A DNA stretch of 64,000 bases from Candidatus Poribacteria bacterium. Lineage in GTDB: Bacteria; Poribacteria; WGA-4E; JAJDTR01. This document shows, one piece after another, positions 13,063 through 58,003 of this stretch. The first letter of the stretch is position 1, and every line of letters begins with the position of its first letter. The position numbers and the translations under genes are program-made. Where the stretch lies: NCBI GenBank assembly GCA_965220415.1, contig OZ244829.1:2217209-2281208 (forward strand). Reading direction: 5' to 3'. The notes under the pieces are model-generated. The model was not told where the DNA came from. It saw nothing but the letters and a program-made list of their open reading frames with translations, and ran no database searches.

Positions 13063-13644
13063 TTATTCTTTGCACCTCTCTATTTGCGTTGTTCGGTTAA
13101 CCGGGTTTTCCTCGTCCAACGCCCAGTTCCGCGGGTTGTTTTTGATATAGGTACGGATATCGTCCAATGATTCATCGTCACGGATGACATGGTCGTAAAA
13201 GGAGCGCTGCCACAATTTTGCATTAAATGGTTTCCAACCCTTTGTTTTGACGCCTTCGATATACAACCTGGTTGTCAACGATTTGAATCGGTGTACAACC
13301 TCAGACAAGGAAAATGTAGGGACAACCCCCCGTGGTTGTCCGTTTGGGTTGAAACGCGCTTCGTTTGGGACGGCACGGGGGCCGTCCCCTACAATGATAA
13401 TTATTCCGTGCAAATGATTAGGCATTATCTGGAATTGGTCTGTCCGTATACCGTGATAAAATATCGATAATTCATGCCAGGTTTTTGCCACCATTTTTCC
13501 TGCGGCATTTGGAATCATCTGACCATCAACGATTTTACCAAATAATTCCTTTCGATTTTGCGTGCAGATTGTCACAAAATAATATCCCGGCTGAGAATAA
13601 TCGTAATGCTGTAGCCGATTCGGTTTTCGGATTTGGTTATTCAT
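13063..13644 (-). CDS. IS200/IS605-like Y1 (HuH) transposase of the REP-associated (RAYT) type
   Basis: YYFVTICT N-terminal strand, HuH motif MPNHLHGII, and C-terminal WQRSFYDHVIRD...YIKNNP. Annotated from the internal ATG (MNNQIRKPNRLQHYDY...); a TTG at 13668 extends it by 8 aa. A REP-like hairpin module is translated in-frame between the HuH motif and the C-terminal half. Confidence 0.8.
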   Translation of the reverse strand: MNNQIRKPNRLQHYDYSQPGYYFVTICTQNRKELFGKIVDGQMIPNAAGKMVAKTWHELSIFYHGIRTDQFQIMPNHLHGIIIIVGDGPRAVPNEARFNPNGQPRGVVPTFSLSEVVHRFKSLTTRLYIEGVKTKGWKPFNAKLWQRSFYDHVIRDDESLDDIRTYIKNNPRNWALDEENPVNRTTQIERCKE

Positions 13645-14128
13645 AATCCGTGCGGATTGTAGGGACAACCCCCCTGTGGTTGTCCGTTGGGGTTAATACG
13701 TGCTTCATTCGGGACAGCACGGGGACCGTCCCCTACAATGACAATTATTCCGTGCAAATGGTCACAAAATAATATCCTGCATGGGGATAATCGTAATACT
13801 GTAACCGATTCGGTTTTCGGGTTGGTTATTCATAATCCGTGCGGATTGTAGGGACAACCCCCTGTGGTTGTCCGTTGGGGGTTGATACGTGCTTCATTCG
13901 GGACGGCACGGGGACCGTCCCCTACAATGACAACTATTCCGTGCAAATGATCACAAAATAGTATCCCGCATGGGGACAATCGTAACACTGTAGCCGATTC
14001 GGTTTTCCGGTTTGGTTATTCATAATTCGTGCGGATTGTAGGGACAACCCCCCGTGGTTGTCCGTTGGGGTTGATACGTACTTCATTCGGGACGGCACGG
14101 GGACCGTCCCCTACATTTCCTAAACCCC
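13315..14128. repeat. Tandem array (~3 units of ~190 bp plus a half unit) of RAYT 5'-end + GTAG-led paired GC-rich hairpins (REP-like)
   Basis: Units start at 13580, 13771 and 13961 and end at ~14125. Each carries TGTAGGGACAACCCCC(C)GTGGTTGTCCG (GTAG + GGACAACC/GGTTGTCC hairpin) and GGGACGGCACGGGGACCGTCCCC (second hairpin), followed by a copy of the first ~100 nt of the transposase ORF. Extra-genic copies carry a 1-bp deletion that frameshifts the N-terminal peptide. An additional hairpin module sits at 13315-13417 inside the gene. Confidence 0.8.
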
Positions 14129-24483: not shown

Positions 24484-27400
24484 ATGAAAATTAAGAATAT
24501 TGACTTCCCCAAACCCCTGTTAGATGCCTTGCATGCAAATAAACTGGTGGTGTTCGCCGGGGCAGGAGTTTCAATGGGTGACCCTGCCCATCTACCAAAT
24601 TTCAAATCGTTAACCGATATGATCGCCCAACGTACTGGCAAAAACTTGCGCAAGGATGAAAAGTTCGAAGAATTCCTCGGAAGATTGCACGATGACGAAG
24701 TAAAGGTTCACGAAATTGCAGCCGGTGTACTTTCCCAAGAAAGTTTGCAAGCAACCAAACTACATAAGAATCTTTTACAGCTTTATCCCAACATCGGGCC
24801 AGTTCGCCTAGTGACCACCAATTTCGATCTCCTGTTTGAGCAGGCCGCAGAGGGAATGTTCGACAGTCTACCAGAGGTGTTTCGGGCACCTGCGTTACCC
24901 TTGGGGCGCCAGTTCAACGGCATTATTCATGTTCACGGTTCCGTCTCAAAACCCGGCCAGATGGTGCTTACAGATAAGGATTTCGGTCTCGCCTATCTGA
25001 CCGATGGATGGGCTCGACACTTCCTTGTTGAACTGTTCAGTAATTTTACAATCCTCTTTGTTGGCTATAGTCATGACGACACGATTATGAATTATCTGGC
25101 GCGTGCGCTTCCGGCCGGTTCAGAGGATCGGCGCTTCGTTTTAACCGGTTCAGAAGACAGTAAAAAGCCAGGCGATTGGCGTTTGCTCGGAATTCATCCC
25201 ATTACCTACCCACAGACTCACAAGGAAGACCATAGCAAACTTGAGACGGGTGTCCGCGGCCTCGCCAATCATGTCCGACGCAGTGTCGTTGATTGGCATC
25301 GCGAGATCACTGCAATTGCTGAAAACCCGCCTCCTCTAGCTGATGACGAGAAAATAGTGGGAACTATTGAGGAGGCGCTTGGAGATAAGACAAAGACTCA
25401 ATTCTTCACAAAAGCAGCGTCAAACCCAGATTGGATTGATTGGCTCGACGAGCACGGGTGCTTAAAGGCGCTGTTTGGTAGCGATTCGTTAAGAGACCAG
25501 GATATGGCTCTGTCTTGGTGGGTGGCAGATCGGTTTTTATACGACCATGCAAACAGAATTTTCCTTCTAATTAGCAAATACGATACGCGATTACATCCAA
25601 AGTTTTGGCACGATTTAGCTCGGAAGATTGGTAGGGATATGGAGGCTTCCCGAGATAAGGTAGTTCTATCTCGCTGGATTTCATTGCTGCTATCAACGGC
25701 GCCAAGCGACGGGGACAGCACCAATGGGGTGTACGTAGATACCGGCAATCTTCTTGATCAGATAGGCAAACGCTGTATTGCACACGGGATGTTAGAAGAT
25801 TTGTTGAGAATCTTCGATACCATGATGCAGAGTCGTTTATTAATAAGGGGTGGTTATCCGCTGCTCAGTGACGATGGAGAAGAGGAGAATCTCTTATTTG
25901 ACGCGAAATTGTCGCTAATCGGTAAATATGGCGGACTGAATAAGTTATGGGAAGGGGGACTGAGACCGAATTTATTTCAAGTAGCCGAGCCATTACTAGA
26001 ATCGGCTGTCAGACGGTTGGAAGAATGGTATCTTACATTACACACTTGGGGAAAGGCAAATCGCGAGTTGGAACCTGCTAGCATCCGGCGTTCCGCCATT
26101 GAACCTCACGAACAGGACAGGCATCCTCAACCGGTTGACGCGATAATAGATGTTGTTCGAGACTGCCTTGAGTCACTGGCATTGAACCAGCAAGACTCGG
26201 CGGCGCGGTGGTGTGATAAGCTCGTGCAGTCGGATGCACCATTGCTGCGCCGGCTGGCGGTACATGGACTATCCATACGCACCGACCTGTCACCGGACGA
26301 CAAAATTCAGTGGTTGCAAGAACATATAGACCTGCACGAATACGCTATTCACCACGAAATATTCCAGGCGGTGTACCAAGCATACCCCAAGATGAGTTCG
26401 GAACACCGAAAAACTCTGATTGAAGCCGTGAGGGCGTACCGTTGGCAGCACGAAGATTGTGAGGATGATAGGAAATTCACGTCACGAGTACATTTCGACT
26501 GGCTTCATTGGCTCCACAAATCAGATCCGACCTGTCAGACGGCTAAACAGGCTTTGAACGAGTTACAAGCGGAATACCCAGATTTCGAGCCAAAGAAATA
26601 TCCTGATCTGACATCTTGGATTGAATCAGGTTGGGGCGACCTACCGAACTCATGGACGTCTGAAGAACTCCTGTCAAGACCGACATCTTATTGGCTAGAC
26701 AAACTACTGTCGACTGAGGACTCAGAAAGAAATCGACCGAGATTCGGAATGCTAATTAATAGCATCACAGAAGCGACGGAACAGGACTTCGCTTGGGGTT
26801 TAAGTTTGGCTGATGAATTGGATGCCTCTGAAAAATGGGATTCAGAACTCTGGTACGCCTTGATTCGCGCTTGGTCGAAAATGGCGTTGAACGAAGATAA
26901 GCGCGCACAAGTGGTTTACTGGCTTGGCAGAACCGAACTGTATGCGAAACATTGTCGTGAAATTGCTGATGCGCTTTGCACGCTAGTGAAGAATGGCGGG
27001 CTGCCCTACTCCTTAAACCTACTCCATCAAGCCAACGAGATTGCTGCCACGTTATGGCGTAATCTTGATCGGACCCAATCGATCGAGGAGAAGGAGAACT
27101 GGCTAGACACTGCCATGAACCACCCAGCAGGGTGCCTTGCATACTTCTGGATGTCCAGTTTCTTCCTTTGGCGAGAGCAACAAGACCCTAAGCCTACAAC
27201 TTTCAGTGATGAGTATCTTAGGGCACTGTCAGACATTATGGTAGACCAGTCACTACCGGGGAGGCTGGCACGAACTGTTCTTGCCAGCCAATTGCACTTC
27301 CTGCTGACAGTAGATGAGGGCTGGACACGAGATAATGTGCTACCGCTATTTGAGCCTGAATGTGAAGATTTTCAAGCAGCATGGGACGGCTTTGCAAGGT

Positions 27401-28044
27401 GGGGAAATCTCAATCCTGCTGTCGCTGAAGCGATGGCAGGCCTATTCCTCAAGGCTGTTACTCGGATTAGCAACGATCTTCCCAATCAATGTGAGCCCTT
27501 CATTCGACATTATACTGATATGCTCGCATATTTTGCTGAAGACCCCCTTTGTGAATGGATTCCTAAGTTGTTTCAACATAGTAACCAAGAAACTAAGGAT
27601 TCCTTTGCATCGGCGGTGGGCAACCGTTTGCAATACTTAGCTGAAGCAGAACAACAGGACGTACTACGAAAATGGTGGATCTCTTGGCTCAAGCCCTTTT
27701 GGATGAATCGCTTACAAGGGATGTTCGCTAAACTGGAGCCTGGCGAGATTTCGCACATACTGGACTGGTTGCCACATTTGACACCCGTATTTCCGGAAGC
27801 TGTTGATTTAGCAATTCAGATGCCAAGGGGCCGGTTGCAACCTTGCTGGGTTTTAGACTACCTAAGAGAAAGTAATTTGTGGCAGAAACACCCCGAGTCA
27901 ATAGCGAAGTTGATTCTGTATCTTTGGGAATGCGAGTTCAGGTTTACTCGGCTTCTAGACCAAGAATTCATTGACTCGCTTCTTCAGGCGGACGTTTCAT
28001 TGGAACTTAAGAAGGAATTAGAGGACATCAAAATCCAACTCTAG
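24484..28044 (+). CDS. SIR2-like (SIR2_2/DHS-like NAD-binding) domain protein with ~900-aa alpha-helical C-terminal domain; DSR1/DSR2-like defence-associated sirtuin candidate
   Basis: N-terminal ~270 aa carry LVVFAGAGVS (Gly-rich NAD loop), TTNFDLLFEQA (conserved Asn, N113) and IIHVHGS (conserved His, H151), arranged as in prokaryotic SIR2_2 domains. The remainder is W/L-rich helical repeats with no other recognisable enzymatic motif. Confidence 0.8.
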   Translation: MKIKNIDFPKPLLDALHANKLVVFAGAGVSMGDPAHLPNFKSLTDMIAQRTGKNLRKDEKFEEFLGRLHDDEVKVHEIAAGVLSQESLQATKLHKNLLQLYPNIGPVRLVTTNFDLLFEQAAEGMFDSLPEVFRAPALPLGRQFNGIIHVHGSVSKPGQMVLTDKDFGLAYLTDGWARHFLVELFSNFTILFVGYSHDDTIMNYLARALPAGSEDRRFVLTGSEDSKKPGDWRLLGIHPITYPQTHKEDHSKLETGVRGLANHVRRSVVDWHREITAIAENPPPLADDEKIVGTIEEALGDKTKTQFFTKAASNPDWIDWLDEHGCLKALFGSDSLRDQDMALSWWVADRFLYDHANRIFLLISKYDTRLHPKFWHDLARKIGRDMEASRDKVVLSRWISLLLSTAPSDGDSTNGVYVDTGNLLDQIGKRCIAHGMLEDLLRIFDTMMQSRLLIRGGYPLLSDDGEEENLLFDAKLSLIGKYGGLNKLWEGGLRPNLFQVAEPLLESAVRRLEEWYLTLHTWGKANRELEPASIRRSAIEPHEQDRHPQPVDAIIDVVRDCLESLALNQQDSAARWCDKLVQSDAPLLRRLAVHGLSIRTDLSPDDKIQWLQEHIDLHEYAIHHEIFQAVYQAYPKMSSEHRKTLIEAVRAYRWQHEDCEDDRKFTSRVHFDWLHWLHKSDPTCQTAKQALNELQAEYPDFEPKKYPDLTSWIESGWGDLPNSWTSEELLSRPTSYWLDKLLSTEDSERNRPRFGMLINSITEATEQDFAWGLSLADELDASEKWDSELWYALIRAWSKMALNEDKRAQVVYWLGRTELYAKHCREIADALCTLVKNGGLPYSLNLLHQANEIAATLWRNLDRTQSIEEKENWLDTAMNHPAGCLAYFWMSSFFLWREQQDPKPTTFSDEYLRALSDIMVDQSLPGRLARTVLASQLHFLLTVDEGWTRDNVLPLFEPECEDFQAAWDGFARWGNLNPAVAEAMAGLFLKAVTRISNDLPNQCEPFIRHYTDMLAYFAEDPLCEWIPKLFQHSNQETKDSFASAVGNRLQYLAEAEQQDVLRKWWISWLKPFWMNRLQGMFAKLEPGEISHILDWLPHLTPVFPEAVDLAIQMPRGRLQPCWVLDYLRESNLWQKHPESIAKLILYLWECEFRFTRLLDQEFIDSLLQADVSLELKKELEDIKIQL

Positions 28045-33540: not shown

Positions 33541-34062
33541 TCAGACATTATTCAGCTCCGATAGAATCTCTTGGATTCTTGCCGAGAGCCTCCTAACGGG
33601 GACCATTTCATCAAGCTTTTTTGTTAATTTAAACGTTACCCCTTGTCCTTCCGCCATCCGTACCAATCTGCCTGCTTTGTGTTCAGCAACCATTCCTTTA
33701 CGCCACACGTTGAAAACTATATTATGCGGGCAAATCCCTAAGCAAAGAAGGTAATCATACTCACGATCCAATCGAACATGGTTGAACTGGAATGTTCCAT
33801 TAGCACCCAGCGAAGCTGTCTTGACCTCGAATTGAAGTGTTCCAATTCGTATGTCCGTCTCTGACGTACGGTCTCCGTTTTCGGTCTCGATCCCATTCTG
33901 TAGAAGGTACCTGCGTATGAACTCCTCTCCGATTTCTCCGCGATTCGTGTTGCCAAGCATTCGATACCGGATCAACGGAGAATCTCTCCAAATATCCTCG
34001 GGCGAATGCTCCCGAATGATTGAGACAAGAAGGTCAACTGGATTCACTTGGGAGGCTCCCAT
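33541..34062 (-). CDS. Putative type II restriction endonuclease (PD-(D/E)xK fold)
   Basis: 173 aa; D-x(n)-E-x-K arrangement in ETDIRIGTLQFEVKT. Its start overlaps the 3' end of the upstream methyltransferase gene by 19 bp. Confidence 0.5.
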   Translation of the reverse strand: MGASQVNPVDLLVSIIREHSPEDIWRDSPLIRYRMLGNTNRGEIGEEFIRRYLLQNGIETENGDRTSETDIRIGTLQFEVKTASLGANGTFQFNHVRLDREYDYLLCLGICPHNIVFNVWRKGMVAEHKAGRLVRMAEGQGVTFKLTKKLDEMVPVRRLSARIQEILSELNNV

Positions 34063-34769
34063 GCGCGTTTGTCCGAGCCGCGTTTCCAGAATACTAGAAA
34101 GTACGAGTGATTTTTTCGCGCATGAACCTGTCGCACTGCTCGACTGACACCGGGCTTATTCTGACGCATTACTACGAACAGGTCCTCCGCTACGAACCCT
34201 ATCCGCTCATAGGCTTGCATGATTTCAACATGAGTAAATCTCTGGCGATTGGCGCAGACCTCGTCTTGGCATTTCACGATTAGCACGCCGCGCTCGCGTA
34301 GTACCCTATGTGCTTCCACAGCAGCATCCTCGTAGAGTGATAGGACTGCCTCATGGTATTTCTTTGTAGTTCTGTTCCCGGTGCGGTTGTTCCTGTAGTG
34401 GTGCTCGAACGCTTGGTGAACGGTATGAGCCGTTCCTCCGGGAGAATGCATGTATGGCGGATCGAGCACAACACAGTCGATTTCACCGTCCATGTAAGGA
34501 AGATCCCTGCAATCAATCCCCATCAAGATGTCGGAAGGCCTCAAGCGATAAAGATCTTCAGGTATTCGTCTCCAAAATACGCCCTTTCCGTAAGTGACAT
34601 CGGCGACAATGCTACCCGGAGCAACATACAAGCCAATTACATGACGGAAGACATCGTCATTCCCCTCGGCGTAGGCACTAAATACAAGATCGTTGGTTGG
34701 CTTTCCGTTGCGAACTCGACGACGCTCTCGCGTTGCTTGCGGAACTCCAGTAATAGTCAGTTGGTTCAT
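34044..34769 (-). CDS. DNA methyltransferase, N4-C/N6-A (beta-class, DPPY motif)
   Basis: VLDPPY motif IV and a C-terminal SAM-binding region. Start assigned to the ATG at 34769 (MNQLTITG...), which has AGGAG 9 nt upstream; the track start at 34838 is an extension. Confidence 0.8.
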   Translation of the reverse strand: MNQLTITGVPQATRERRRVRNGKPTNDLVFSAYAEGNDDVFRHVIGLYVAPGSIVADVTYGKGVFWRRIPEDLYRLRPSDILMGIDCRDLPYMDGEIDCVVLDPPYMHSPGGTAHTVHQAFEHHYRNNRTGNRTTKKYHEAVLSLYEDAAVEAHRVLRERGVLIVKCQDEVCANRQRFTHVEIMQAYERIGFVAEDLFVVMRQNKPGVSRAVRQVHARKNHSYFLVFWKRGSDKRAWEPPK

Positions 34770-35040
34770 GTCCGTGCTCCTAAATCCAGTCCCGCATCTT
34801 GCGCTACCTTTTAATGATACTTTCATCCGCAACGGCAACTAATATTTCTTCAACAATTTCTCTTTTGCGATGCCCCTGGATTTCTTCAAACTTGTCGAAA
34901 GTTACACCCGATTTCTCTATTCTCTTTACAACCTCACTATACCAGATTCTTGGAGCAAGTGCAATATGATCTGTTGCAAGATACAACCAGAACCGGAGTT
35001 GTTCGACATACTTGATTGGTCGAATAATTGATAGCCTTCT

Positions 35041-36069
35041 TTATCGTTGCCACCACCTCTTGCTCTGAGATTCATTCCCTGACGCCTCTTGGCCGACAGT
35101 TGATTCCAACGACTTTAGTAAACGCAAAATCTCCTTATCCTTTCTAGATATCGCCAGCGCGTCTTGACACGCCTTAATTGCGCGTTTACCCATCGTTTCA
35201 TCTCCCGCCGATTGATATGCAACCCCGTAGATTTGCGCGACTGCACGACAATAGTCGGCTGAATCCACATCTCCTGTCGGGGCGTCCCCTATTTGCTCAA
35301 GCGCCACTAACCCATCCTCCCATGATTCAGCCTTGGCATCACAGATTACCTTGTGACACAGCAATTCCGAGTTGGAATCGTCCAACCAATGCGCTTGTTC
35401 GTAGCATGCGGCAGCTTCGTCATAGGCTTCATTCAGGACGTGCAATTTCGCCAACTCGGTATAAAATACGTATAGACCGCTTTCGTGGATTGTGTAACGA
35501 TTGGATTGCGTATTTACAAGCCAATCCCGATCCTCCAGAAATTCAATCGCGCTATTTTTCTCCTCGTCGGTTATAATCACGTCGGTAAGTAAGTGTTTCG
35601 CAATGGCGGCGTTCGGGTAGATTTTTGTACGGCTTTTCATTAGGGGGTAGGCTTGCACGCCTTTATCCATCTGAAGCAGTTTCAAGCCGGTCGCAATTCG
35701 GAACAGCGAAACAATCTGATCGCTATTTTTCCGCGCTCTTTCTTCAAATATTAGTTGCTGATTTTGCGCTATGTGCTGATTTAATGCGCTCAACTCATCT
35801 TTGTATTCCGTAACCTCGGGCTTGACTTGGTGTGCCCTTCCGAGAAATCTTTGTGCCGCGAATATTTCATTCCATTCTCGGTAGATCAAACCGAGTTGAA
35901 AATTAGCATTGGCGAGCACCTCGGCTGCCGACGCGGCAAGTAAAACAGAATCGTAGGCTTGGATCGCACACCCCAGTTCTCCCTCAACGGTCAGAGTTTG
36001 CGCGTGACCGATAAGTTCATCCAGTGAAGATTGCCCGCAGTCCTTGTCGAGGAGAAAATTCTTCCGCAT
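35041..36069 (-). CDS. TPR-repeat protein (342 aa)
   Basis: Multiple TPR-like helix pairs (AIQAYDSVLLAA..., AACYEQAHWLDDSNSE...). Confidence 0.65.
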   Translation of the reverse strand: MRKNFLLDKDCGQSSLDELIGHAQTLTVEGELGCAIQAYDSVLLAASAAEVLANANFQLGLIYREWNEIFAAQRFLGRAHQVKPEVTEYKDELSALNQHIAQNQQLIFEERARKNSDQIVSLFRIATGLKLLQMDKGVQAYPLMKSRTKIYPNAAIAKHLLTDVIITDEEKNSAIEFLEDRDWLVNTQSNRYTIHESGLYVFYTELAKLHVLNEAYDEAAACYEQAHWLDDSNSELLCHKVICDAKAESWEDGLVALEQIGDAPTGDVDSADYCRAVAQIYGVAYQSAGDETMGKRAIKACQDALAISRKDKEILRLLKSLESTVGQEASGNESQSKRWWQR

Positions 36070-37897: not shown

Positions 37898-40800
37898 CTA
37901 TCCACTGCCTGCGTCACGCAATCGTTCGATCCGCCTGCGTACCTCGTCCGCAATATTTCGGTAGTTTTCCCGCTTATTCGCTTTCGTCGCAGATTCTTCG
38001 GGGAAGCCGGGAGCGACCGGCTCCCCGAAAACGACACGAATTCTGCTTTTGCGCGGCAACGACTTGCCTTTGGGCAATGCTTCATAGGTGCCACTTACAT
38101 ACGCGGGCACGATAGGCACATTAGCTTCGTATGCAAGCAAACCGAGACCAGGCTTGAAAGGCTGGAGTTCCCCGTTCAGTGAGCGGGTACCTTCCGGATA
38201 GATGAGCAAGTTTTCGTCTCGAAGAAGCGCTTCCTGTGCAACGCGTAGGCTTTGGAGGGAATTATCCGTTCGATCGAACGGCAAGGCGTTGAGACACTGG
38301 CTAACAAACCACGCTTTCATTCGACTGTTGTAGAAGTAGTCTCTTGCACTAAGCGGACGTAATTTTCTTGATTCTACGCCTAGAGCGGTCATAATCGCCG
38401 GTGTATCGAGGTGGCTGCTGTGATTCGCCGCGATGATGTACGGTACTTCGGATGGGATGTGCTCTAATCCCCCGCACCGAAGCGAGAAGCGGCGCCGGAA
38501 AATCGTCCGAATGCCGAAGCGAATAAGTTTAGCCAAATGGCTCGGAGGCGAGTCGAGTTTCCCATGCTCCGCGGCGATCGAGGAACCAAGGGACGTATCC
38601 TCGGCATCCGGCGTGGCTTGCTGTGAGTCTAACGTGTTGACAACATCAATTACATCTCCGACAGTACGAATCCTTGCAGCGACCTCGTCCGGCACCTGTT
38701 TACCCAGTTTCGATTCAAGCAGCAACAGCAGTTCAACACGGGTCATCGAATCCAATCCGAGATCCGTGTCCAACGCGCTGTCCGCACGGATGCGATCCGG
38801 CGGAACGCGTGACAATCGCGTGAGTTCGCCGACAACCTCAGCTGCCCGGCTGCCCGGTTCCCACTCTCCAACAGCCACATCTGCCGAGGTTTCTTCGGCG
38901 GAAACAACGGGATGAGCCGCGTCTACCACTATCTGCTTGAACAGCAACGTCTTGACACGCGGACGGTCAATCTCGCCGTCAGGCGTTTTGGGCAAGTCCT
39001 CCTCCCAGAAATGTACCTTTTGGAGATTCTGATGCGTGGGGAGACTGCGTGCGCATGTTTGGAGATGTTTCTGAATCGATTCTTGGACTTCCTCCCGAGC
39101 GTCGCGCTCCGAGCAATTCGGCACAATTACTGTGTGTACTTCCTCTCCGAACGAGTCCGGCGTATCTAGTCCGACGACGCAAATCTCGGAAATATGGGGA
39201 CTATGTCGATACAGTTCCTCAAGTTCGACCGGATAGATATTTTTGCCGGTGCTGGCAATAATGACATCTTTTTTGCGCCCCGTAATAAAGAGGTAACCGT
39301 CATCATCAATATAACCGAGATCGCCGGTATAGAGCAAACCATCTCGAAGGACTTGTTGGGTCGCCGCCGGATTCCGATAGTATCCGGCCATGGTGCTCGG
39401 ACTCTTCGTGACAATTTCGCCAATTCCGCTGGCGTCCGGATTTTCAATCTGGAACTCCACCTCATTTACCGGCAGTCCGACGGAACCGGCTTTGCTCTTC
39501 TCCGCAGGATTCACGCTTAACACGGGCGCCGTTTCCGTCATGCCGTAACCTTCAAGGATTGTGAAACCAAAACGCTTGAATCCGTCGTAAACCTGACGAG
39601 GCAAGGCGGCACCGCCGCTTATAAGGACGCGGATCTGTCCTCCTAATGCCTTCTTAACGTGTTCAATCACGGCTGAATCATCCGACTCGTCCGTTTCAAT
39701 CGGGGTTTTCAGCACATACCTCTCAATGGCGTCATAGAGCAATTTGTACAAGCGCGGAACCCCGATAATGGCGGTCGTTTCCGTTTCTCGCATGGATTCC
39801 AAGATCGCGGTTGGTTTGAATGTATTGATATAGGTGACAGTGGCGCCACCGTAGATAGCCATCAGAAAACTGCAGGAGAACCCTAGGGCATGATACAGCG
39901 GAAGAATTGCTAGGACACGATCTGTTTCGGCTGGGGGAAGTACCTGCGCGACAGCGTGGAGATTTGCCAGAAACCCCTTGTGAGACAACATCGCGCCCCT
40001 CGGATCTACGGTGGTACCCATTGTGAAAATGATCGAGGCGGTTGCCTCTGGCTGGATTTCTACGATTGGAAAATCGGCAGGAATTTCATCAGTGGAAGAC
40101 ACAACTCCCTCGGCGCCCGAAGGTGCGCAGAGCTGATTCAGATTCAATACGTCCAGCTTTTCCCTTTCGTCGGAGATAGAGTGCAGTTGTTTAAAAAGGG
40201 ACTCAGACGCGATAACCACTTTTGCCTCCGTAAAGTCGGCAAGCGCCATCACTTCGAATCTAGCGGTCTGCGGATCGATAGGCACTACAATGGCACCGAT
40301 CTGGATGGCGGCTAGGTAGGTGATTCCCCACTCGGGTTGATTCTCGGAAATGAGAATCACCTTATCGTCTTTGCGATAGCCACGTTTCCAAAACGCAAAC
40401 GCGATCTGTCGCGATACATCATAAACTTGACGGTAGGAATACCGTACCCACTCCCCGCCTCGTTCAATCTGCAAGGCTGTATTATCCGAGTGCGCCTCGG
40501 CTTGTCGCTCAACGAGATCCAAAATCGTCTGACAGTCCTGTATTGAGCCCTTTTCCTGCGGGCAAGCATCGTGGCGTACCGCATTTGAACGCTCAACTTC
40601 TATGAGCGTTTTCACCGACGGATCGGCATCCATTTTAAGAATGAACCGCTTGATTCCCGGAATATGGATATTCTGGAGATAGTGTTGCCAGTCGAATTGG
40701 GAGATATTGAGGTCGAAGCGGCGCTGATCGACTGAGGTCAGCGATGCGAACAGTTGTCCAATCTTGGAGGTTTCAAACTCGAAGTTGAGGCGCGTATACG

Positions 40801-42226
40801 GACCATAGATGCGAATGTAGTATTGAAGCCCCTCTAGTGCATTTTGTATCACGGCGATACGACGGTTCCGCTGTCTCGACCATCTCAGTGGAACAAGATT
40901 CAGCAGCCGACTTGCTGCTTTGAGCACACTCAACTTTCGCGATAACTTGTGCTGAAATTCCTCAAGACCGGGGTACCGCCATACGGGTGGAGGAATGGGC
41001 TTTCCACCATCTAGCATTGGATATTTGATAAAGTGGTCGTGAGAGGCGTCCACTATGTTTCGGAAATACAGTGGGTTTTGGGAGCCAGTCGCCACATGGT
41101 AGACCTCAATTCCGCGCCTCTGATAGGTCTGCTTCGCCGCGATTAAAATGGCGTTCACTACAAAGTCCACGGGGACAATATCAAGGATAATATCCGGATC
41201 CGCAGGAAAATCGGGCAGGCGCCCTTTTCCAAAACCAACGATAAGCGGATCCGCCATTCGTAACCCATCGAGCCAACCCGGTCGTGGGTCTTCTAGGCTA
41301 CTTTCAATAATCGAAGGGCGAATGATTGCTACCGGCAAATCACCCCGCGTCTTGGCGACCATCTGTTCGCCCAGCGCTTTCATGTAGGTGTACGTGTCAT
41401 TCCAGCCTCGTGACTGTGCTCGTTTCAGCCCTTCATCGACCAAGCGCTGCTCAATCCATTTCTTGCGAATGGTATCATACTGACCACGATAACCGTCGCT
41501 GTCTTCCCGTTCTTCTCCGACCTGTTCCAAAGCCTCTCGTCGGAATTGGTCGCTTCGAGGGGATTCATCCGCCTCGGCTCTTATCTTTTCCGCAATTTGT
41601 TGGACATCTTCAATTTCTTCCTCAAGCGAGTGAGGGATTCTCTCTCCGGTCTCTTCGGCAATCTTTTGGGCACAAACTTCGTACGGTGGGTGTAATTCCT
41701 CGCTGATTCTCCCCGGCTTCGTTCCGCACACGTAGGCGGTCGAAACGTGAAGAAGTACGGCGTCATTGCATCCTCGAACGAATTCGACGGCCTGTTTTGC
41801 ACCAAGTACATTGCTATGCAATGACATATCCATCGGCGGATCGAAGTTAACCAACCCTCCGCTATTTATGAAGATTTGGACTTCGTCCTGTAGTTCTTTG
41901 TAACGGGCATCAGGCATCCCGAGTCGTTCGTAGGTCAAGTCGCCATCTACGCCATGCACCTTCTCGCGAATCCAGCTATCGAACCGGTCTCCATGAAAAT
42001 GTTTAAGTTTTGCAAAAACGCTTGACGTGAAGAACTCGTCCTCTAGCCGATCAGCGGCAGAATTCACTTTGCCGTTGGGATTGGTTCGACTGCGAACGAG
42101 TAGGTAGATCCGCTTTACACCCGGCAGATCCGTGAGAATTTTGGCGACCACCGGCTTGCCCAAGAAGCCCGTAGCACCCGTAATCAGCACAGTTTTGTTT
42201 TGAAAAAACTCGGATATGGTGTTCAA
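37898..42226 (-). CDS. Four-domain lipid-biosynthesis megaenzyme: fatty acyl reductase (FAR) - fatty acyl-AMP ligase - acyl carrier domain - 1-acyl-glycerol-3-phosphate acyltransferase (PlsC); ElbD-like
   Basis: N-terminal Rossmann TGATGFLG + YxxxK (FAR/male-sterility type) with a FAR_C region; AMP-binding motifs TMGTTVDPRG, GYGMTETA, YTGDLGY.DDDGYLFITGRKKD; phosphopantetheine attachment LGLDSMTRVEL; acyltransferase motifs NHSSHLD (HX4D) and YPEGTRS. Confidence 0.85.
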   Translation of the reverse strand: MNTISEFFQNKTVLITGATGFLGKPVVAKILTDLPGVKRIYLLVRSRTNPNGKVNSAADRLEDEFFTSSVFAKLKHFHGDRFDSWIREKVHGVDGDLTYERLGMPDARYKELQDEVQIFINSGGLVNFDPPMDMSLHSNVLGAKQAVEFVRGCNDAVLLHVSTAYVCGTKPGRISEELHPPYEVCAQKIAEETGERIPHSLEEEIEDVQQIAEKIRAEADESPRSDQFRREALEQVGEEREDSDGYRGQYDTIRKKWIEQRLVDEGLKRAQSRGWNDTYTYMKALGEQMVAKTRGDLPVAIIRPSIIESSLEDPRPGWLDGLRMADPLIVGFGKGRLPDFPADPDIILDIVPVDFVVNAILIAAKQTYQRRGIEVYHVATGSQNPLYFRNIVDASHDHFIKYPMLDGGKPIPPPVWRYPGLEEFQHKLSRKLSVLKAASRLLNLVPLRWSRQRNRRIAVIQNALEGLQYYIRIYGPYTRLNFEFETSKIGQLFASLTSVDQRRFDLNISQFDWQHYLQNIHIPGIKRFILKMDADPSVKTLIEVERSNAVRHDACPQEKGSIQDCQTILDLVERQAEAHSDNTALQIERGGEWVRYSYRQVYDVSRQIAFAFWKRGYRKDDKVILISENQPEWGITYLAAIQIGAIVVPIDPQTARFEVMALADFTEAKVVIASESLFKQLHSISDEREKLDVLNLNQLCAPSGAEGVVSSTDEIPADFPIVEIQPEATASIIFTMGTTVDPRGAMLSHKGFLANLHAVAQVLPPAETDRVLAILPLYHALGFSCSFLMAIYGGATVTYINTFKPTAILESMRETETTAIIGVPRLYKLLYDAIERYVLKTPIETDESDDSAVIEHVKKALGGQIRVLISGGAALPRQVYDGFKRFGFTILEGYGMTETAPVLSVNPAEKSKAGSVGLPVNEVEFQIENPDASGIGEIVTKSPSTMAGYYRNPAATQQVLRDGLLYTGDLGYIDDDGYLFITGRKKDVIIASTGKNIYPVELEELYRHSPHISEICVVGLDTPDSFGEEVHTVIVPNCSERDAREEVQESIQKHLQTCARSLPTHQNLQKVHFWEEDLPKTPDGEIDRPRVKTLLFKQIVVDAAHPVVSAEETSADVAVGEWEPGSRAAEVVGELTRLSRVPPDRIRADSALDTDLGLDSMTRVELLLLLESKLGKQVPDEVAARIRTVGDVIDVVNTLDSQQATPDAEDTSLGSSIAAEHGKLDSPPSHLAKLIRFGIRTIFRRRFSLRCGGLEHIPSEVPYIIAANHSSHLDTPAIMTALGVESRKLRPLSARDYFYNSRMKAWFVSQCLNALPFDRTDNSLQSLRVAQEALLRDENLLIYPEGTRSLNGELQPFKPGLGLLAYEANVPIVPAYVSGTYEALPKGKSLPRKSRIRVVFGEPVAPGFPEESATKANKRENYRNIADEVRRRIERLRDAGSG

Positions 42227-54196: not shown

Positions 54197-54379
54197 AAGT
54201 ATCTGCTTTCAATTCAAATATAACCTTCTCGGAACGTTCCATCCTACGTTCGCGTTAAACCTGTCGTACCCCGCAACAGCATGAGGTGTATACGCCAATC
54301 TATCCATTCAAGCACAAATGACCACGGAGGCAAGCTCATCAGTCCGCGTCATTAAGCCGCACATTGAGGAGAACCGGTC

Positions 54380-57300
54380 GTGCAATACACGCCAAATCAG
54401 AAGAAAGCCCACGACTTGAATCGGCATATCGGTGTAACAGCCGGAGCGGGATCTGGGAAAACCGAGGTGTTGGCAAACCGTTACCTCAAAATTCTGCTGG
54501 AATCCGATGTCTCCGTGCGAGGTGTCGTTGCCATTACCTTCACGGAGAAAGCCGCCGCCGAACTCAAAGTGCGCGTGCTAAAAAAGATCGACGAGAAGAC
54601 TGCCTCAAGCGCCGGGAACGATCGGTTGCTGGCGAAATTGGAAGCCATCCGTGAAGAATTCACCGCAGCACCCATCTCGACTATTCACGAGTTCTGTGCG
54701 CGAATCTTGCGGCAATATCCGGTTAAAGGCATCGGCTCAGGATTCGACATTTTGCAGGGAGTCGACCAATGGCTGGTTCTTCGGGACACGGTCGATTCAA
54801 CGCTGAGATCAATTGCCAATCGTCCACGGGGAGATGAAACGCGGGAAAAGCTTGCCAATCTGCTGCGAATGTTCGGTCGGAGGAAACTTGAGGGGATCCT
54901 CAATAAACTTTTGAACAATCGTGATGCGACCAATAACTTGCTTAAATCCTTGTACCGTGAATCGGACGATCAAATCATGGCAGCGTGGAAGGAATTTCTA
55001 GGTGCGGAATTAGGACGAAGCTTGAGAGAGCAATTTCCGGTTGACCGATGGGTGAAATCTCTAAACGCCGCTCTAGGTATTGCGACAGGGAAAAATGCGT
55101 CCAAAGTCAGAGATTTGACGAAGCAGCTTCAGAACACGGGAAACACGATAGCCTCACTGCCGATTCTTTCCGAGATTTCCCTCTTAATCTTGACCCGGGC
55201 CGGGGATATTGCCAAACAGAATTTCATTGGCAGAAGGATTGATACCACCGCGGTTGAAGCCGACATCAAGTTCCTCACCGAAGCGGCGCAACATTTCCAG
55301 TCTTTTCCCTCCCTCACCGAGGACGATGCTTTTCTCATCCGCGTCACATATCCGCTGTTAGCTATCTATGATCTGATACACGAGCAATACACGAATTACA
55401 AACTGATACAGGGCGCATTAGATTTCGAGGACCTTCAAATCGAGGTCAAGAATCTGTTGGGTGATGACAAAATCCGCAGCCGCCTTGCTCGTCAATATTC
55501 CCATATCATGATAGATGAATATCAGGACACCAACGGTTTGCAGTACGATATAATCAAGCCGTTAGTCTCCGGCTTTGCATCGGGCAATCTGTTCATCGTT
55601 GGCGATCGAAAACAAAGCATTTATGGCTTTCGCGGCGCGGATGTACGAACATTCCGCCAAACCTTGACGGGCATGAGCGCGTACCAGTCCGGAAACACCG
55701 ATGATTTTGTGTGGGAGACGGAAACCCTTCAAGCGGAGAAATCGGAGAAGCAAGGCGATATTCATCTCCCGGAGGCTTTTCGTTTCCTACGGAACCTTGT
55801 CGGTTTTGTCAATTTGGTCTTTGGGAGGATTATGGGGGATGGCAATCTCAATGAGTTTGAAGTGGCGTATGAACCGCTGATTATGGGCAGGAAAAACGAG
55901 GCGCCCGGCGACGTAGAATTAATCATCGGACGAGAGCTAGGGGCACAAGAAAACGAGCTAATTGCCTCACGTATCCGCCACTTGATTCAGTCCAACGAAC
56001 TCGTCCGGGATCGCGATACCGAAGAACCGCGTCCAATGCGATACAGCGACATCGCTATCCTCATCAGGAGCCGCACCCGACTCCCGGATATCGAGTCTGC
56101 ACTAATCAAAGCGAGGATTCCATATTGCGTCACGAGCGGAATTGGGTTTTATCAGCGGCAGGAAATCTATGATATATGGAATTACCTGCAATTTCTCGAA
56201 GATCCAACCAATGATGTAGCGTTGATTGGAATCCTGCGAGGACCGTTTTTCAGTATCTCCGATGTGGAATTATTTGAAATCTCACAACATTCCAATCAGG
56301 ATTCATTTTGGGAAGGGGTCAAGAACTACGCAGCAGAAAGCGGCACATCCGCGACGGATGGCGATAACCACAGCCAAGTACAGGATTCTAGAGGGCAGTT
56401 CGAGGCGAAGGCTTCAGACTTTCTCCTATGCGCCTGTGAGACTTTGGAAAAACATCTGAAAATTTGCGGCCGTTTGCCCATCGCGACATTCATCCGTCGG
56501 ATAATCAATGATACGGGTATGGTTGGAACGCTGTCCGTGGGGCTTTCCGGCGGACAGCGATGGGCAAATTTTGAAAAACTGTTGGCTATGGCGCGCGACT
56601 TTGACAAATCGGAATTTTCCGAACTTTCCGATTTCATAGAACGGTTGAATCTGTTGATTGAAGAGGAGGACCGCGAAGGTCAGGCAAGGATTGAGTCTTC
56701 AGAGGATGTCGTTCAAGTGATGACCAGCCACGCCGCGAAAGGGCTGGAGTTTCCGGTTGTTATCCTCCCTTACCTAAGTAGAAAATTCAAATTTGACCAA
56801 GATCCGTTCATCGACGAGGATATAGGCATCGGTTTCAGTCCGGCAAAGCCCGACAAGAACTACGAGGGCAGTAACCCATCAATTGCCAAAGTCATGAAAA
56901 AGCGCCAGGAACAAAAAACTGTCGCCGAGGAAAAGAGACTCTTTTATGTGGCGGCAACGCGAGCTCGCGACAGACTCATCCTCTCGGGATCCGTCGGTTT
57001 AAGCGGTGAACCACCTAGAAATTGTTGGTTCAATTGGATGCTAAACGCTCTCGAACTGACAGAGGCGCCTAACGAATCTCGGATTGAATTCCCCGTGACG
57101 ATTGAAACCTTTACTGAAAACTCGCGAACGCCAATTTCGTTCAATCTTCCCATCCGACTATTCCATTCCACCGAGGAGATGAATCTCCCAAGCGAAACAC
57201 CGACACTTTCGAAACCTCCAGCCGACTTTCCCGAGATTTACATAGAGCCGCTGGAAAGTACGTCGGCAGGCGAAAATCTGGCTGTCCCGCAACTATTGAG

Positions 57301-58003
57301 CTATATCCACTGTCCCACGAAGTTCTACCTTAAACATCGCCTCGGTCTACCGGACACAAATGTCCTCGTCCCGGAGGAAAACCATTCGAATCTGCAAGAT
57401 TTCGCAATTCGCAGCGTACTTGGTCAAATTAGAACACATGCGGATCGCAATCGCGATCTGGGCAAGTTAATCAACACTGCCGTGAAATCCGTGTCAGACG
57501 AGTTCGCTGAAAATGGTGTGGCTCTCCACGTGAAACACTTCTTGGATTCCGAGTTAGGGAAGTTGGCGTTAGCCGCCAACGAAAGCTGCTGCGAACAAGA
57601 GATTCACGCGCTGTTCGATAATCACGTTATCTATGGTGTAGTAGACCGTCTCTTCAAAGGCTCGGATGGGCTATGGCAAATTATCGACTATGAAACCAAT
57701 CAATTCGACTCGTCAGAGATTGAAACGTGGATAGACTTCTACCGTCCGAAGGTCGAATTGTGCACGCTGCTGGTTCATCGGCTTTACCCGGAACAGCAGG
57801 TGATACCGGCAACAATTTTCTTTACCTCGATCGCCGAAGCTCATTCGATGAACCTGACCCTGGACAACTTAGAACATCTGGAACAGCAGTGGATTGAGAG
57901 AATCGAAGTCATTCAGACGGGGAAATTCGAGAAAAACACGGGGCACTGTCCGCATTGCCCCTACTTCGTAGAAGAGCAGTGCCTGTTCCCGGATCCGGAA
58001 TAG
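54380..58003 (+). CDS. UvrD/Rep-family helicase fused to C-terminal RecB/AddB/Cas4-type PD-(D/E)xK nuclease with 4-Cys Fe-S cluster
   Basis: Walker A GAGSGKTE, helicase motifs (DEYQDTN, VGDRKQSIYGFRGAD, TSHAAKGLEFPVV, YVAATRARDRL). The C-terminal domain has YIHCP...C and terminal GHCPHCPYFVEEQC cysteines plus a D-x(n)-E-x-K core. Confidence 0.85.
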   Translation: MQYTPNQKKAHDLNRHIGVTAGAGSGKTEVLANRYLKILLESDVSVRGVVAITFTEKAAAELKVRVLKKIDEKTASSAGNDRLLAKLEAIREEFTAAPISTIHEFCARILRQYPVKGIGSGFDILQGVDQWLVLRDTVDSTLRSIANRPRGDETREKLANLLRMFGRRKLEGILNKLLNNRDATNNLLKSLYRESDDQIMAAWKEFLGAELGRSLREQFPVDRWVKSLNAALGIATGKNASKVRDLTKQLQNTGNTIASLPILSEISLLILTRAGDIAKQNFIGRRIDTTAVEADIKFLTEAAQHFQSFPSLTEDDAFLIRVTYPLLAIYDLIHEQYTNYKLIQGALDFEDLQIEVKNLLGDDKIRSRLARQYSHIMIDEYQDTNGLQYDIIKPLVSGFASGNLFIVGDRKQSIYGFRGADVRTFRQTLTGMSAYQSGNTDDFVWETETLQAEKSEKQGDIHLPEAFRFLRNLVGFVNLVFGRIMGDGNLNEFEVAYEPLIMGRKNEAPGDVELIIGRELGAQENELIASRIRHLIQSNELVRDRDTEEPRPMRYSDIAILIRSRTRLPDIESALIKARIPYCVTSGIGFYQRQEIYDIWNYLQFLEDPTNDVALIGILRGPFFSISDVELFEISQHSNQDSFWEGVKNYAAESGTSATDGDNHSQVQDSRGQFEAKASDFLLCACETLEKHLKICGRLPIATFIRRIINDTGMVGTLSVGLSGGQRWANFEKLLAMARDFDKSEFSELSDFIERLNLLIEEEDREGQARIESSEDVVQVMTSHAAKGLEFPVVILPYLSRKFKFDQDPFIDEDIGIGFSPAKPDKNYEGSNPSIAKVMKKRQEQKTVAEEKRLFYVAATRARDRLILSGSVGLSGEPPRNCWFNWMLNALELTEAPNESRIEFPVTIETFTENSRTPISFNLPIRLFHSTEEMNLPSETPTLSKPPADFPEIYIEPLESTSAGENLAVPQLLSYIHCPTKFYLKHRLGLPDTNVLVPEENHSNLQDFAIRSVLGQIRTHADRNRDLGKLINTAVKSVSDEFAENGVALHVKHFLDSELGKLALAANESCCEQEIHALFDNHVIYGVVDRLFKGSDGLWQIIDYETNQFDSSEIETWIDFYRPKVELCTLLVHRLYPEQQVIPATIFFTSIAEAHSMNLTLDNLEHLEQQWIERIEVIQTGKFEKNTGHCPHCPYFVEEQCLFPDPE

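What the first reader, a model, noticed from the sequence alone, without database searches (positions are those of the whole stretch)
54380..58003. Stand-alone UvrD-like helicase fused to a Cas4/AddB-type Fe-S PD-(D/E)xK nuclease
The 1207-aa protein has a complete SF1 helicase core and a C-terminal nuclease domain bounded by four cysteines (YIHCP...; GHCPHCPYFVEEQC), the arrangement that coordinates a 4Fe-4S cluster in AddB/Cas4 nucleases. No addB/recC/recD-like partner is adjacent: neighbours are an ABC ATPase and an Ldh_2 dehydrogenase. This points to a single-chain helicase-nuclease rather than a canonical AddAB or RecBCD. Such proteins are rarely characterised and sometimes turn up in defence contexts.
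Basis: partly seen in the sequence, partly recalled or inferred. Interest (0 to 1): 0.5.

Follow-up and report, generated by a model that had tools for sequence, protein, structure and literature searches.

The report
AddA-type helicase with iron-stapled pseudo-nuclease
This gene encodes a DNA-end-processing helicase of the AddA family whose nuclease domain keeps four invariant iron-sulfur-binding cysteines but has lost the standard catalytic lysine, so it is an unusual variant of a known repair enzyme and not a new kind of stand-alone helicase-nuclease.

Summary
A 1207-aa ORF (54380-58003, +) has an intact SF1A UvrD-like motor and a C-terminal RecB-fold domain bracketed by four cysteines. Those cysteines are the only invariant columns of that domain across 79 relatives. 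No addB, recC or recD lies in the 64-kb window.

- By sequence the protein is AddA-like, in both the whole protein and the nuclease domain. It belongs to a "4-Cys AddA" family found in Ignavibacteriota, Chlorobi, Bacteroidota and Poribacteria.
- In the Ignavibacteriota/Bacteroidota members a genuine Fe-S AddB sits on the same contig in at least five cases, displaced by inserted genes. "No adjacent partner" is therefore typical of the family and does not show independence.
- Whether this Poribacteria-like genome has an AddB could not be tested.

The nuclease active site is not canonical. Motif III is DYE instead of DYK, and QxxxY is KxxxC. All 80 canonical relatives read D-D-K-Q-Y. Poribacteria-like lineages vary at these positions, yet the domain is as conserved as in canonical relatives. 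The domain is probably a catalytically retired, Fe-S-stapled structural module.

The context is housekeeping, not defence. This is a new variant of a known kind, of moderate interest.

The parts
54380..58003 (+). Gene for the 1207-aa AddA-like helicase with an Fe-S-stapled nuclease-fold domain (GTG start, TAG stop)
54366..54371 (+). Shine-Dalgarno-like GAGGAG, 8 nt upstream of the GTG start
   Evidence: read directly from the sequence
54395..55660 (+). UvrD-helicase N-terminal domain (aa 6-427). It includes Walker A GAGSGKT (54443-54463), motif II DEYQDT (55514-55531), motif III (55601-55639) and a long helical 1B insertion.
   Evidence: motifs invariant in 121 homologs
55760..56986 (+). UvrD_C helicase domain (aa 461-869) with motif V SHAAKGLEF (56726-56752) and motif VI VAATRARD (56948-56971)
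57281..57964 (+). PD-(D/E)XK (RecB-family) nuclease-fold domain (aa 968-1195)
57311..57313 (+). Cys978, the first putative [4Fe-4S] ligand, N-terminal to the nuclease core (YIHCPTK)
57947..57982 (+). Cys1190-x2-Cys1193-x7-Cys1201, the three C-terminal putative [4Fe-4S] ligands (HCPHCPYFVEEQC)
   Evidence: invariant in 79 diverse relatives
57644..57646 (+). Nuclease motif II Asp1089 (GVVDRLF), retained here
57680..57700 (+). Nuclease motif III, IIDYETN. Asp1103 is kept, but the catalytic Lys is replaced by Glu1105 (GAA).
57740..57763 (+). Degenerate motif IV, YRPKVELC. The canonical QxxxY is replaced by Lys1124 and Cys1128.

Best explanation
The gene encodes the AddA-type subunit of an AddAB-like DNA-end-processing enzyme. 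It belongs to a distinct "4-Cys AddA" lineage shared by Ignavibacteriota, Chlorobi, Bacteroidota and Poribacteria.

Shown:
- The protein has an intact SF1A (UvrD/PcrA/AddA-like) ATPase motor.
- It has a C-terminal RecB-fold domain closest in sequence to the AddA nuclease.
- That domain is bracketed by four invariant cysteines, in the arrangement that binds a [4Fe-4S] "iron staple" in AddB, AdnA, Dna2 and Cas4.
- In this protein the catalytic Lys of motif III is Glu, and the QxxxY motif is KxxxC.
- In Poribacteria-like relatives the five catalytic positions vary freely, while the rest of the domain is as conserved relative to the helicase as in canonical relatives.

Inferred:
- The motor translocates 3'->5' on one strand and unwinds from DNA ends.
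- The C-terminal domain still folds around an Fe-S cluster but no longer cuts DNA by the standard mechanism. It serves instead as a structural, strand-guiding or end-binding module.
- The enzyme probably works with an AddB encoded elsewhere in the genome, which would cut the 5' strand. Such a complex would produce 3' single-stranded tails without Chi-regulated cutting of the 3' strand.
For: AddA affinity:
- The best NCBIfam hits are addA_Gpos (378 bits) and addA_alphas (aligned over aa 6-1152), ahead of pcrA and recB.
- The best solved relative is B. subtilis AddA (1.8e-53).
- The nuclease-domain profile hits AddA (2.8e-6) and AdnB, but not AddB.

Active motor: motifs I, II, III, V and VI are invariant.

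Fe-S staple:
- The four Cys are invariant in 121 close and 79 diverse sequences.
- The domain model is confident.
- The model is most similar to the Fe-S nucleases AdnA, Dna2 and Cas4-family ACE1.

Partnership in relatives:
- An Fe-S AddB is encoded at L018:85-2847. Its motifs read YAGCPFRF, GRIDRV, VIDYKTG, QLPAY and CGHCGFRTVC.
- A conserved cluster addB...aat...purC-addA appears in L018 and L166. In L165/L019 addB lies about 10 kb upstream on the same contig.
- 4-Cys AddA is found directly downstream of addB in L027, L028, L106, L108, L122 and L135.

Catalytic erosion with retained constraint:
- D-D-K-Q-Y is found in 80 of 80 canonical members. Derived members read DNEQY, DDEKC, DNDQY, GNEQY, NSEQY and so on.
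- The nuclease/helicase identity ratio is 0.81-0.94 in derived members and 0.74-0.96 in canonical ones.
- The changes fall in several separate Poribacteria-like sub-lineages.

Housekeeping character:
- The gene is single-copy. No contig length is duplicated among about 20 Mb-scale contigs.
- Gene order matches a 95%-identical relative.
- The gene lies downstream of ligA in three more distant relatives.
Against: - No AddB was found in the 64-kb window or in six other Poribacteria-clade loci (L001-L004, L026, L085). The rest of the genome could not be searched, so the partner is only assumed.
- All curated AddA equivalog cutoffs are missed by a wide margin (378 vs 707.65; 304.6 vs 860.75).
- Inactivity of the nuclease is inferred from sequence alone. 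Some PD-(D/E)xK enzymes use Glu in place of Lys (BamHI, from my own knowledge), and this protein keeps E1072, D1089, D1103 and E1105.
- Fe-S binding is inferred from the cysteine pattern, not measured.
- The full-length model was too poor (pLDDT 63, pTM 0.35) to show how the domains dock.
Confidence: 0.55

Rival explanations
1. Truly partner-less enzyme. In the Poribacteria-like lineage AddB has been lost, and this protein acts alone or as a homo-oligomer. It would be a UvrD-like repair helicase whose Fe-S domain senses or holds DNA ends or branches.
For: - No AddB lies in 64 kb of window or in six other clade loci.
- Catalytic erosion is confined to this clade, which suggests its functional constraints changed.
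- In relatives the gene is linked to ligA rather than to any addB.
Against: - The unlinked arrangement is also seen in Ignavibacteriota/Bacteroidota relatives that demonstrably have AddB on the same contig, so absence nearby says little.
- Only about 170 kb of 5-6 Mb genomes was seen.
- The long 1B insertion and AddA-like full-length architecture are retained.
Confidence: 0.3
2. The nuclease is still active through a variant site. Glu1105 would replace Lys as in BamHI-type PD-(D/E)xK enzymes. The protein would then be a functional helicase-nuclease.
For: - The acidic residues E1072, D1089, D1103 and E1105 are present in this protein.
- Glu at the Lys position is itself conserved, in 104 of 121 sequences.
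- The domain is under purifying selection.
Against: - Within the clade the metal-binding Asp of motif III is mostly Asn or Ser, and motif II Asp is sometimes Asn, Gly or His.
- In the query's own sub-lineage QxxxY becomes KxxxC, KxxxH or KxxxN.
- Such free variation at catalytic positions contrasts with 80 of 80 D-D-K-Q-Y in canonical relatives.
Confidence: 0.2
3. It is a component of an anti-phage defence system: a Gabija-GajB-like, DRT-associated or other defence helicase-nuclease.
For: PADLOC models for GajB and a DRT-associated helicase match at 1e-48 to 1e-15. A SIR2_2 gene lies 26 kb away.
Against: - The PADLOC matches cover only generic UvrD helicase stretches.
- No GajA, RT or other partner is adjacent. 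The neighbours are lepA, lepB, an ABC ATPase, Ldh_2 and a PALP enzyme.
- The gene is single-copy with conserved gene order across relatives.
- GC content is uniform across the region.
Confidence: 0.03
4. It is an AdnAB-type enzyme, one of two paralogous motor-nuclease subunits as in mycobacteria. This protein would play the AdnA role, since AdnA is the subunit with the Fe-S cluster.
Against: - No second UvrD-nuclease paralog is adjacent or on the same Mb-scale contigs.
- The helicase matches AdnB and AddA, not AdnA, by sequence.
- The nuclease-domain profile matches AdnB better than AdnA.
- The partner seen in relatives is an AddB with no helicase motifs.
Confidence: 0.03

Closest known systems
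AddA subunit of AddAB helicase-nuclease (B. subtilis AddAB, PDB 3U44/4CEH; B. fragilis AddAB, PMC2887965)
   Same: SF1A motor with all motifs, a long 1B insertion and a C-terminal RecB-family nuclease-fold domain. It is the best sequence match for both the whole protein and the nuclease domain. Relatives are encoded with an AddB.
   Different: - The described AddA has no Fe-S cluster; the cluster is assigned to AddB (PMC3378879, PMC2887965). This protein has four invariant Cys around its own nuclease domain.
- The catalytic DYK is DYE, and QxxxY is lost.
- addB is not adjacent.
- Scores are far below the curated AddA cutoffs.
AdnA subunit of mycobacterial AdnAB (PDB 6PPU, 9NP6, 7SJR)
   Same: UvrD-like N-terminal part plus a C-terminal RecB-fold nuclease with an Fe-S subdomain. 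It is the best structural match to the C-terminal domain.
   Different: The sequence relationship is weak (E 0.035-0.06). No AdnB-like paralog is adjacent or on the same large contigs. The motor motifs here are intact and AddA/AdnB-like.
AddB subunit of AddAB (iron-staple nuclease; Yeeles et al. 2009 as cited in PMC3378879)
   Same: One Cys lies before and three Cys after a RecB-type nuclease domain.
Cas4 / Dna2 / Exo5 family of Fe-S RecB-like nucleases
   Same: Shared fold and four-cysteine staple. Weak TIGR00372 cas4 hits appear in relatives.
   Different: Those are active nucleases with D...ExK and QxxxY motifs. Dna2 has the nuclease N-terminal to an SF1B helicase. There is no CRISPR context here.
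RecB of RecBCD
   Same: SF1A motor plus a tethered C-terminal nuclease domain.
   Different: Scores are lower (235 bits vs cutoff 696). No recC or recD is present in the window. RecB has no Fe-S cysteines.

Membership tests
AddA (AddAB subunit A) | SF1A UvrD-like motor with intact ATPase/helicase motifs | tested here: met
   GAGSGKT, DEYQDT, GDxxQSIYxFRGA, HAAKGLEF and TRARD are invariant in 121 sequences. Pfam UvrD-helicase and UvrD_C both match.
AddA (AddAB subunit A) | C-terminal RecB-family nuclease with catalytic D...D/E-x-K and QxxxY | tested here: not met
   The fold is present, but motif III is D-Y-E and motif IV is K-x-x-x-C. Canonical relatives are all D-D-K-Q-Y.
AddA (AddAB subunit A) | Score above the curated equivalog cutoffs (TIGR02785, TIGR02784) | tested here: not met
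   378.3 vs 707.65 and 304.6 vs 860.75. Canonical 4-Cys relatives also fall below (414-416 bits).
AddA (AddAB subunit A) | Cognate AddB encoded in the genome, usually immediately upstream | tested here: inconclusive
In Ignavibacteriota/Bacteroidota relatives AddB is on the same contig. As a positive control, addB is adjacent in 52 of 76 Cys-free AddA loci.
Iron-staple (Fe-S) RecB-family nucleases (AddB, AdnA, Dna2, Cas4, Exo5) | Four Cys, one N-terminal and three C-terminal (CxxCxnC) to the nuclease core | tested here: met
   C978, C1190, C1193 and C1201 are invariant. They are the only invariant columns of the domain in 79 diverse sequences.
Iron-staple (Fe-S) RecB-family nucleases (AddB, AdnA, Dna2, Cas4, Exo5) | Structural similarity to solved Fe-S nucleases | tested here: met
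Iron-staple (Fe-S) RecB-family nucleases (AddB, AdnA, Dna2, Cas4, Exo5) | Actual binding of a [4Fe-4S] cluster | not testable with these tools
   Needs UV-visible or EPR spectroscopy, or iron analysis, of purified protein.
AddB (AddAB subunit B) | Inactivated helicase-like N-terminal region (ADDB_N, no functional Walker A/motif II) | tested here: not met
   All motor motifs are intact. The genuine AddB of relatives carries PF21445 ADDB_N + PF13361 + PF12705 and is a different protein.
AdnAB | Two adjacent paralogous UvrD-nuclease subunits | tested here: not met
   There is only one helicase or nuclease-domain hit per locus. No contig length is duplicated among the top 120 homologs.
RecB (RecBCD) | recC and recD partners, and a score above the TIGR00609 cutoff | tested here: not met
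   235.4 vs 696.05. No RecC or RecD Pfam families appear in any window ORF.
Defence helicases (Gabija GajB, DRT-associated helicase) | Co-encoded defence partner (GajA OLD-type nuclease, or a reverse transcriptase) in a defence locus | tested here: not met
   The neighbours are an ABC ATPase, lepB, lepA, Ldh_2 and a PALP enzyme. PADLOC hits cover only generic helicase stretches.

The most novel reading that the evidence does not exclude
In Poribacteria-like bacteria the AddA nuclease has been repeatedly and independently retired, while its Fe-S cluster domain is kept under selection. Two readings follow. (a) AddB has been lost, and the protein is a partner-less Fe-S helicase that uses a pseudo-nuclease domain as a DNA-end or branch sensor. 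(b) AddB is kept, and the complex is a natural "AddA-nuclease-dead" AddAB that cuts only the 5' strand, making 3' tails without any Chi control. Either reading would give a natural separation-of-function case showing that the iron staple has a role independent of catalysis.
Probability: 0.35. Interest if true: 0.6.

Novelty: new variant of a known kind. Interest (0 to 1): 0.4.

Why it matters
Textbook AddAB places the Fe-S cluster in AddB only. This work shows a large lineage of AddA-type subunits that carry their own four-cysteine staple. It spans several phyla, with 463 clusters at 50% identity matching the domain. These genes are usually unlinked from addB, so automated annotation calls them only "UvrD-helicase domain-containing protein".

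Within Poribacteria-like bacteria the catalytic residues of this domain have been replaced several times, while the cysteines and the rest of the domain stay conserved. This is a natural experiment on what the iron staple does apart from supporting catalysis. It also bears on whether end resection can run without 3'-strand cutting and Chi regulation.

For genome annotation, the practical point is that "no adjacent addB" should not be read as "stand-alone helicase-nuclease".

Tried and rejected
1. Full-length AlphaFold model (1200 aa, 60-sequence alignment): pLDDT 62.9, pTM 0.35. It is unusable for domain docking.

2. Finding AddB in the query's own lineage:
- The exhaustive domain search returned only AddA-like proteins and their fragments.
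- The AddB search returned only Bacteroidota/Ignavibacteria proteins in its top 120.
- The metagenome scan gave only one further Poribacteria-clade locus, L085.
- Exact look-up of the window's protein found no record, with either V or M as the first residue, so the source contig could not be extended.

3. Literature: nothing was found on Poribacteria recombination genes. Yeeles 2009 is not held. Cromie 2009 did not appear in the search.

4. Promoter and terminator scans around the gene were no better than shuffled sequence.

5. The 45-aa Lys-rich ORF between ligA and the gene in relatives is absent from the window.

6. Defence-system and AdnAB readings were considered and rejected on context and copy number.
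Full report
**Observation.**
The ORF at 54380-58003 (+) is real. It starts at GTG, is 1207 aa long and ends at TAG, with GAGGAG 8 nt upstream of the start. Close homologs have the same length. Pfam finds UvrD-helicase (aa 6-427), UvrD_C (aa 461-869) and PDDEXK_1 (aa 968-1195).

In an alignment of the query with 120 homologs, helicase motifs I, II, III, V and VI are invariant or nearly so. In a much more diverse set of 79 sequences, down to about 20% identity, these four cysteines are the only invariant columns of the C-terminal region.

The neighbours are as described: an ABC ATPase upstream and an Ldh_2 enzyme downstream, in a run of housekeeping genes (argininosuccinate-lyase-like, pyrF, two DnaJ-domain proteins, lepA, lepB, a PALP enzyme). 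Pfam scans of every sizeable ORF in the window show no AddB, RecC or RecD. An AddB HMM run on six-frame translations of the whole window finds nothing except the gene's own nuclease domain.

**What family it belongs to.**
The best curated-model hits are the two AddA equivalogs: addA_Gpos at 378 bits, and addA_alphas at 305 bits aligned over aa 6-1152. PcrA (244 bits) and RecB (235 bits) follow. All are far below their trusted cutoffs. The best solved relative by sequence is B. subtilis AddA (1.8e-53).

So the domain is an AddA-type nuclease domain that carries the four-cysteine staple. It is not an AddB or Cas4 module fused to a helicase.

**How widespread it is.**
An exhaustive search with the C-terminal 268 aa against 1.84 billion cluster representatives found 463 clusters at E<=1e-3. 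Nearly all matches sit at the C-terminus of proteins of about 1150-1270 aa. These proteins have DE(Y/F)QD helicase motifs, four cysteines and canonical nuclease motifs (E; GxhDRh; hhDYKTD; QxxxYA).

A scan of species-representative genomes places the family in Ignavibacteriota, Chlorobiaceae, Kapaibacterium, Bacteroidota MAGs and Poribacteria. The window's closest named relatives are Candidatus Poribacteria, at 74% identity.

**The partner question.**
The window, a 95%-identical relative with the same gene order (L001), three relatives at 42-55% identity (L002-L004), a Poribacteria chromosome (L026) and a metagenome contig (L085) all lack addB within 10 kb.

This is not informative on its own, because it holds for the whole 4-Cys family. 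I built an AddB HMM and used canonical loci as a positive control, then counted loci by where addB lies relative to the AddA gene.

| AddA type | addB adjacent | addB nearby | none within reach |
|---|---|---|---|
| Cys-free AddA | 52 | 3 | 21 |
| 4-Cys AddA (alignment shows all four) | 1 | 1 | 29 |
| 4-Cys AddA (alignment missed the variably spaced last Cys; confirmed by eye) | 11 | 4 | 4 |

The third class includes the cultured Firmicute Lihuaxuella thermophila (L027), which has a plain addB-addA operon.

In the Ignavibacteriota/Bacteroidota relatives a genuine Fe-S AddB is present but displaced:
- L018:85-2847 encodes an AddB with all nuclease motifs and its own CxxCx5C.
- L015 and L016 carry the same gene.
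- A search with that AddB returned proteins of about 1100 aa named "helicase/nuclease subunit B".
- Look-ups confirmed two cases. In L165 (the L019 contig) addB lies about 10 kb upstream on the same strand. In L166 the order is addB - small ORF - adh - aat - x - purC - addA, the same order as in L018.

The family is therefore the AddA partner of an AddB, and the two genes have been pulled apart by insertions. For the query's own genome the presence of AddB could not be tested with the tools available.

**The nuclease active site.**
In the query, motif III reads IIDYETN, with Glu1105 where the catalytic Lys should be. Motif IV reads KVELC where QxxxY should be.

Among the 120 closest homologs, the Lys position is Glu in 104 and Lys in only 9. 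The motif III Asp is Asn in 77 and Ser in 14. In a 198-sequence alignment the five catalytic positions are D-D-K-Q-Y in all 80 canonical members. In the derived group they read DNEQY (58), DDEKC (6, the query type), DNDQY, DDEKH, GNEQY, DSEQY, NNEQY, NSEQY and others.

The domain is not decaying. At matched helicase divergence, the nuclease/helicase identity ratio is 0.81-0.94 in the derived group and 0.74-0.96 in the canonical group. A neighbour-joining tree of the helicase region is only approximate. It places the altered sequences in several separate sub-lineages of the Poribacteria-like clade, interleaved with canonical ones (P0022-P0028, P0128, L026). Nearly all sequences outside the Poribacteria-like clade stay D-D-K-Q-Y; the exceptions are P0185 and P0266 (DQKQY, DQRQY).

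Free variation at catalytic positions, inside a domain that is otherwise conserved and keeps its four cysteines, is the usual signature of a retired enzyme kept for a structural or binding role. I cannot exclude a variant catalytic mechanism. From my own knowledge, BamHI uses Glu in place of the Lys, and the query keeps E1072, D1089, D1103 and E1105.

**Most likely mechanism.**
Shown: an intact SF1A motor, an AddA-type RecB-fold domain with a conserved four-cysteine staple, a non-canonical catalytic site, a housekeeping single-copy context, and AddB partnership in relatives.

Inferred:
- The motor translocates 3'->5' and unwinds DNA from ends, as in AddA (PMC3064778, PMC3321194).
- The C-terminal domain binds a [4Fe-4S] cluster. 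In AddB the cluster is needed for stability and DNA-end binding (PMC3378879).
- The C-terminal domain acts as a non-cutting module.
- With an unlinked AddB cutting the 5' strand, the enzyme would produce 3' tails without Chi-regulated 3'-strand cleavage.

I put this reading at about 0.55. The main rival, at about 0.3, is that AddB has been lost in this lineage and the protein works alone.

**Other readings.**
- A defence role is unlikely. PADLOC hits cover only generic helicase stretches, no defence partner is adjacent, gene order is conserved among relatives, and composition is uniform.
- An AdnAB-type pair is unlikely. There is one copy per locus and no duplicated contig lengths among about 20 Mb-scale contigs.

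**Comparison with what is known.**
The literature held here assigns the Fe-S cluster to AddB and describes AddA as having a second, cluster-free nuclease domain (PMC3378879, PMC2887965). I found no description of AddA-type subunits with their own staple, nor of natural AddA pseudo-nucleases. My literature access was limited, however: Yeeles 2009 is not held, and Cromie 2009 did not appear in the search.

I therefore rate this as a new variant of a known kind, of moderate interest (0.4).

**Limits.**
- Fe-S binding and loss of nuclease activity are inferred from sequence and a predicted fold.
- The partner question for this genome is open.
- The full-length model was unusable.
- The tree is a distance tree only.

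Noticed in passing
L005-L009 and L016 (e.g. L007:5752-7176 followed by L007:7187-10801): In six Ignavibacteria/Chlorobi/Bacteroidota loci the RNA/DNA ligase gene rtcB lies immediately upstream of the 4-Cys addA-like gene, overlapping it or up to roughly 90 nt away. This looks like an operon linking a ligase to the helicase-nuclease.
   Followed up: partly
L002:7079-9091, L003:7393-9399, L004:7389-9410: In three Poribacteria-like relatives the gene lies directly downstream of NAD-dependent DNA ligase ligA. A conserved 45-aa Lys-rich ORF (MRGN(K/R)GKG(G/S)KSLD...) sits between them. That ORF is absent from the window.
   Followed up: partly
window 24484-28044 (+): A 1186-aa protein has an N-terminal SIR2_2 domain (aa 109-240, 2.5e-22) and a weak DUF4020 match at its C-terminus. 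It resembles defence-type SIR2 NADase fusions and has no obvious partner.
   Followed up: no
window 33541-36069 (-): An N6_N4 DNA methylase (34044-34838) is flanked by two ORFs with no Pfam match (33541-34062, 35041-36069). This may be a small restriction-modification unit.
   Followed up: no
window 37898-42226 (-): A 1442-aa multidomain enzyme combines a fatty-acyl reductase (NAD_binding_4 + Sterile), AMP-binding, PP-binding and acyltransferase domains. This is an unusual lipid-type megasynthase architecture.
   Followed up: no
window 19119-23051 (-): A 1310-aa surface protein has nine Big_1/invasin repeats, MG-type domains, a dockerin and a Por_Secre_tail (T9SS sorting signal). This implies a type IX secretion system in this Poribacteria-like genome.
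   Followed up: no
window 13063-13668 (-): An IS200-like Y1 transposase ORF.
   Followed up: no
window 54197-54379 versus L001:9455-10000: The 95%-identical relative has about 360 extra bases in the intergenic region just upstream of the helicase gene. The flanks on both sides align, so this is an indel or small insertion of unknown nature.
   Followed up: no
L015:4983-6236: A group II intron reverse transcriptase/maturase is inserted between addB and the 4-Cys addA in one Ignavibacteriota genome. It is one of the ways the two genes have been separated.
   Followed up: no
L027 (Lihuaxuella thermophila DSM 46701), L028, L106, L108, L122, L135: AddA subunits with a full four-cysteine staple also occur in ordinary addB-addA operons of unrelated phyla, including a cultured Firmicute. 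An Fe-S AddA is therefore scattered well beyond the FCB group and Poribacteria.
   Followed up: partly
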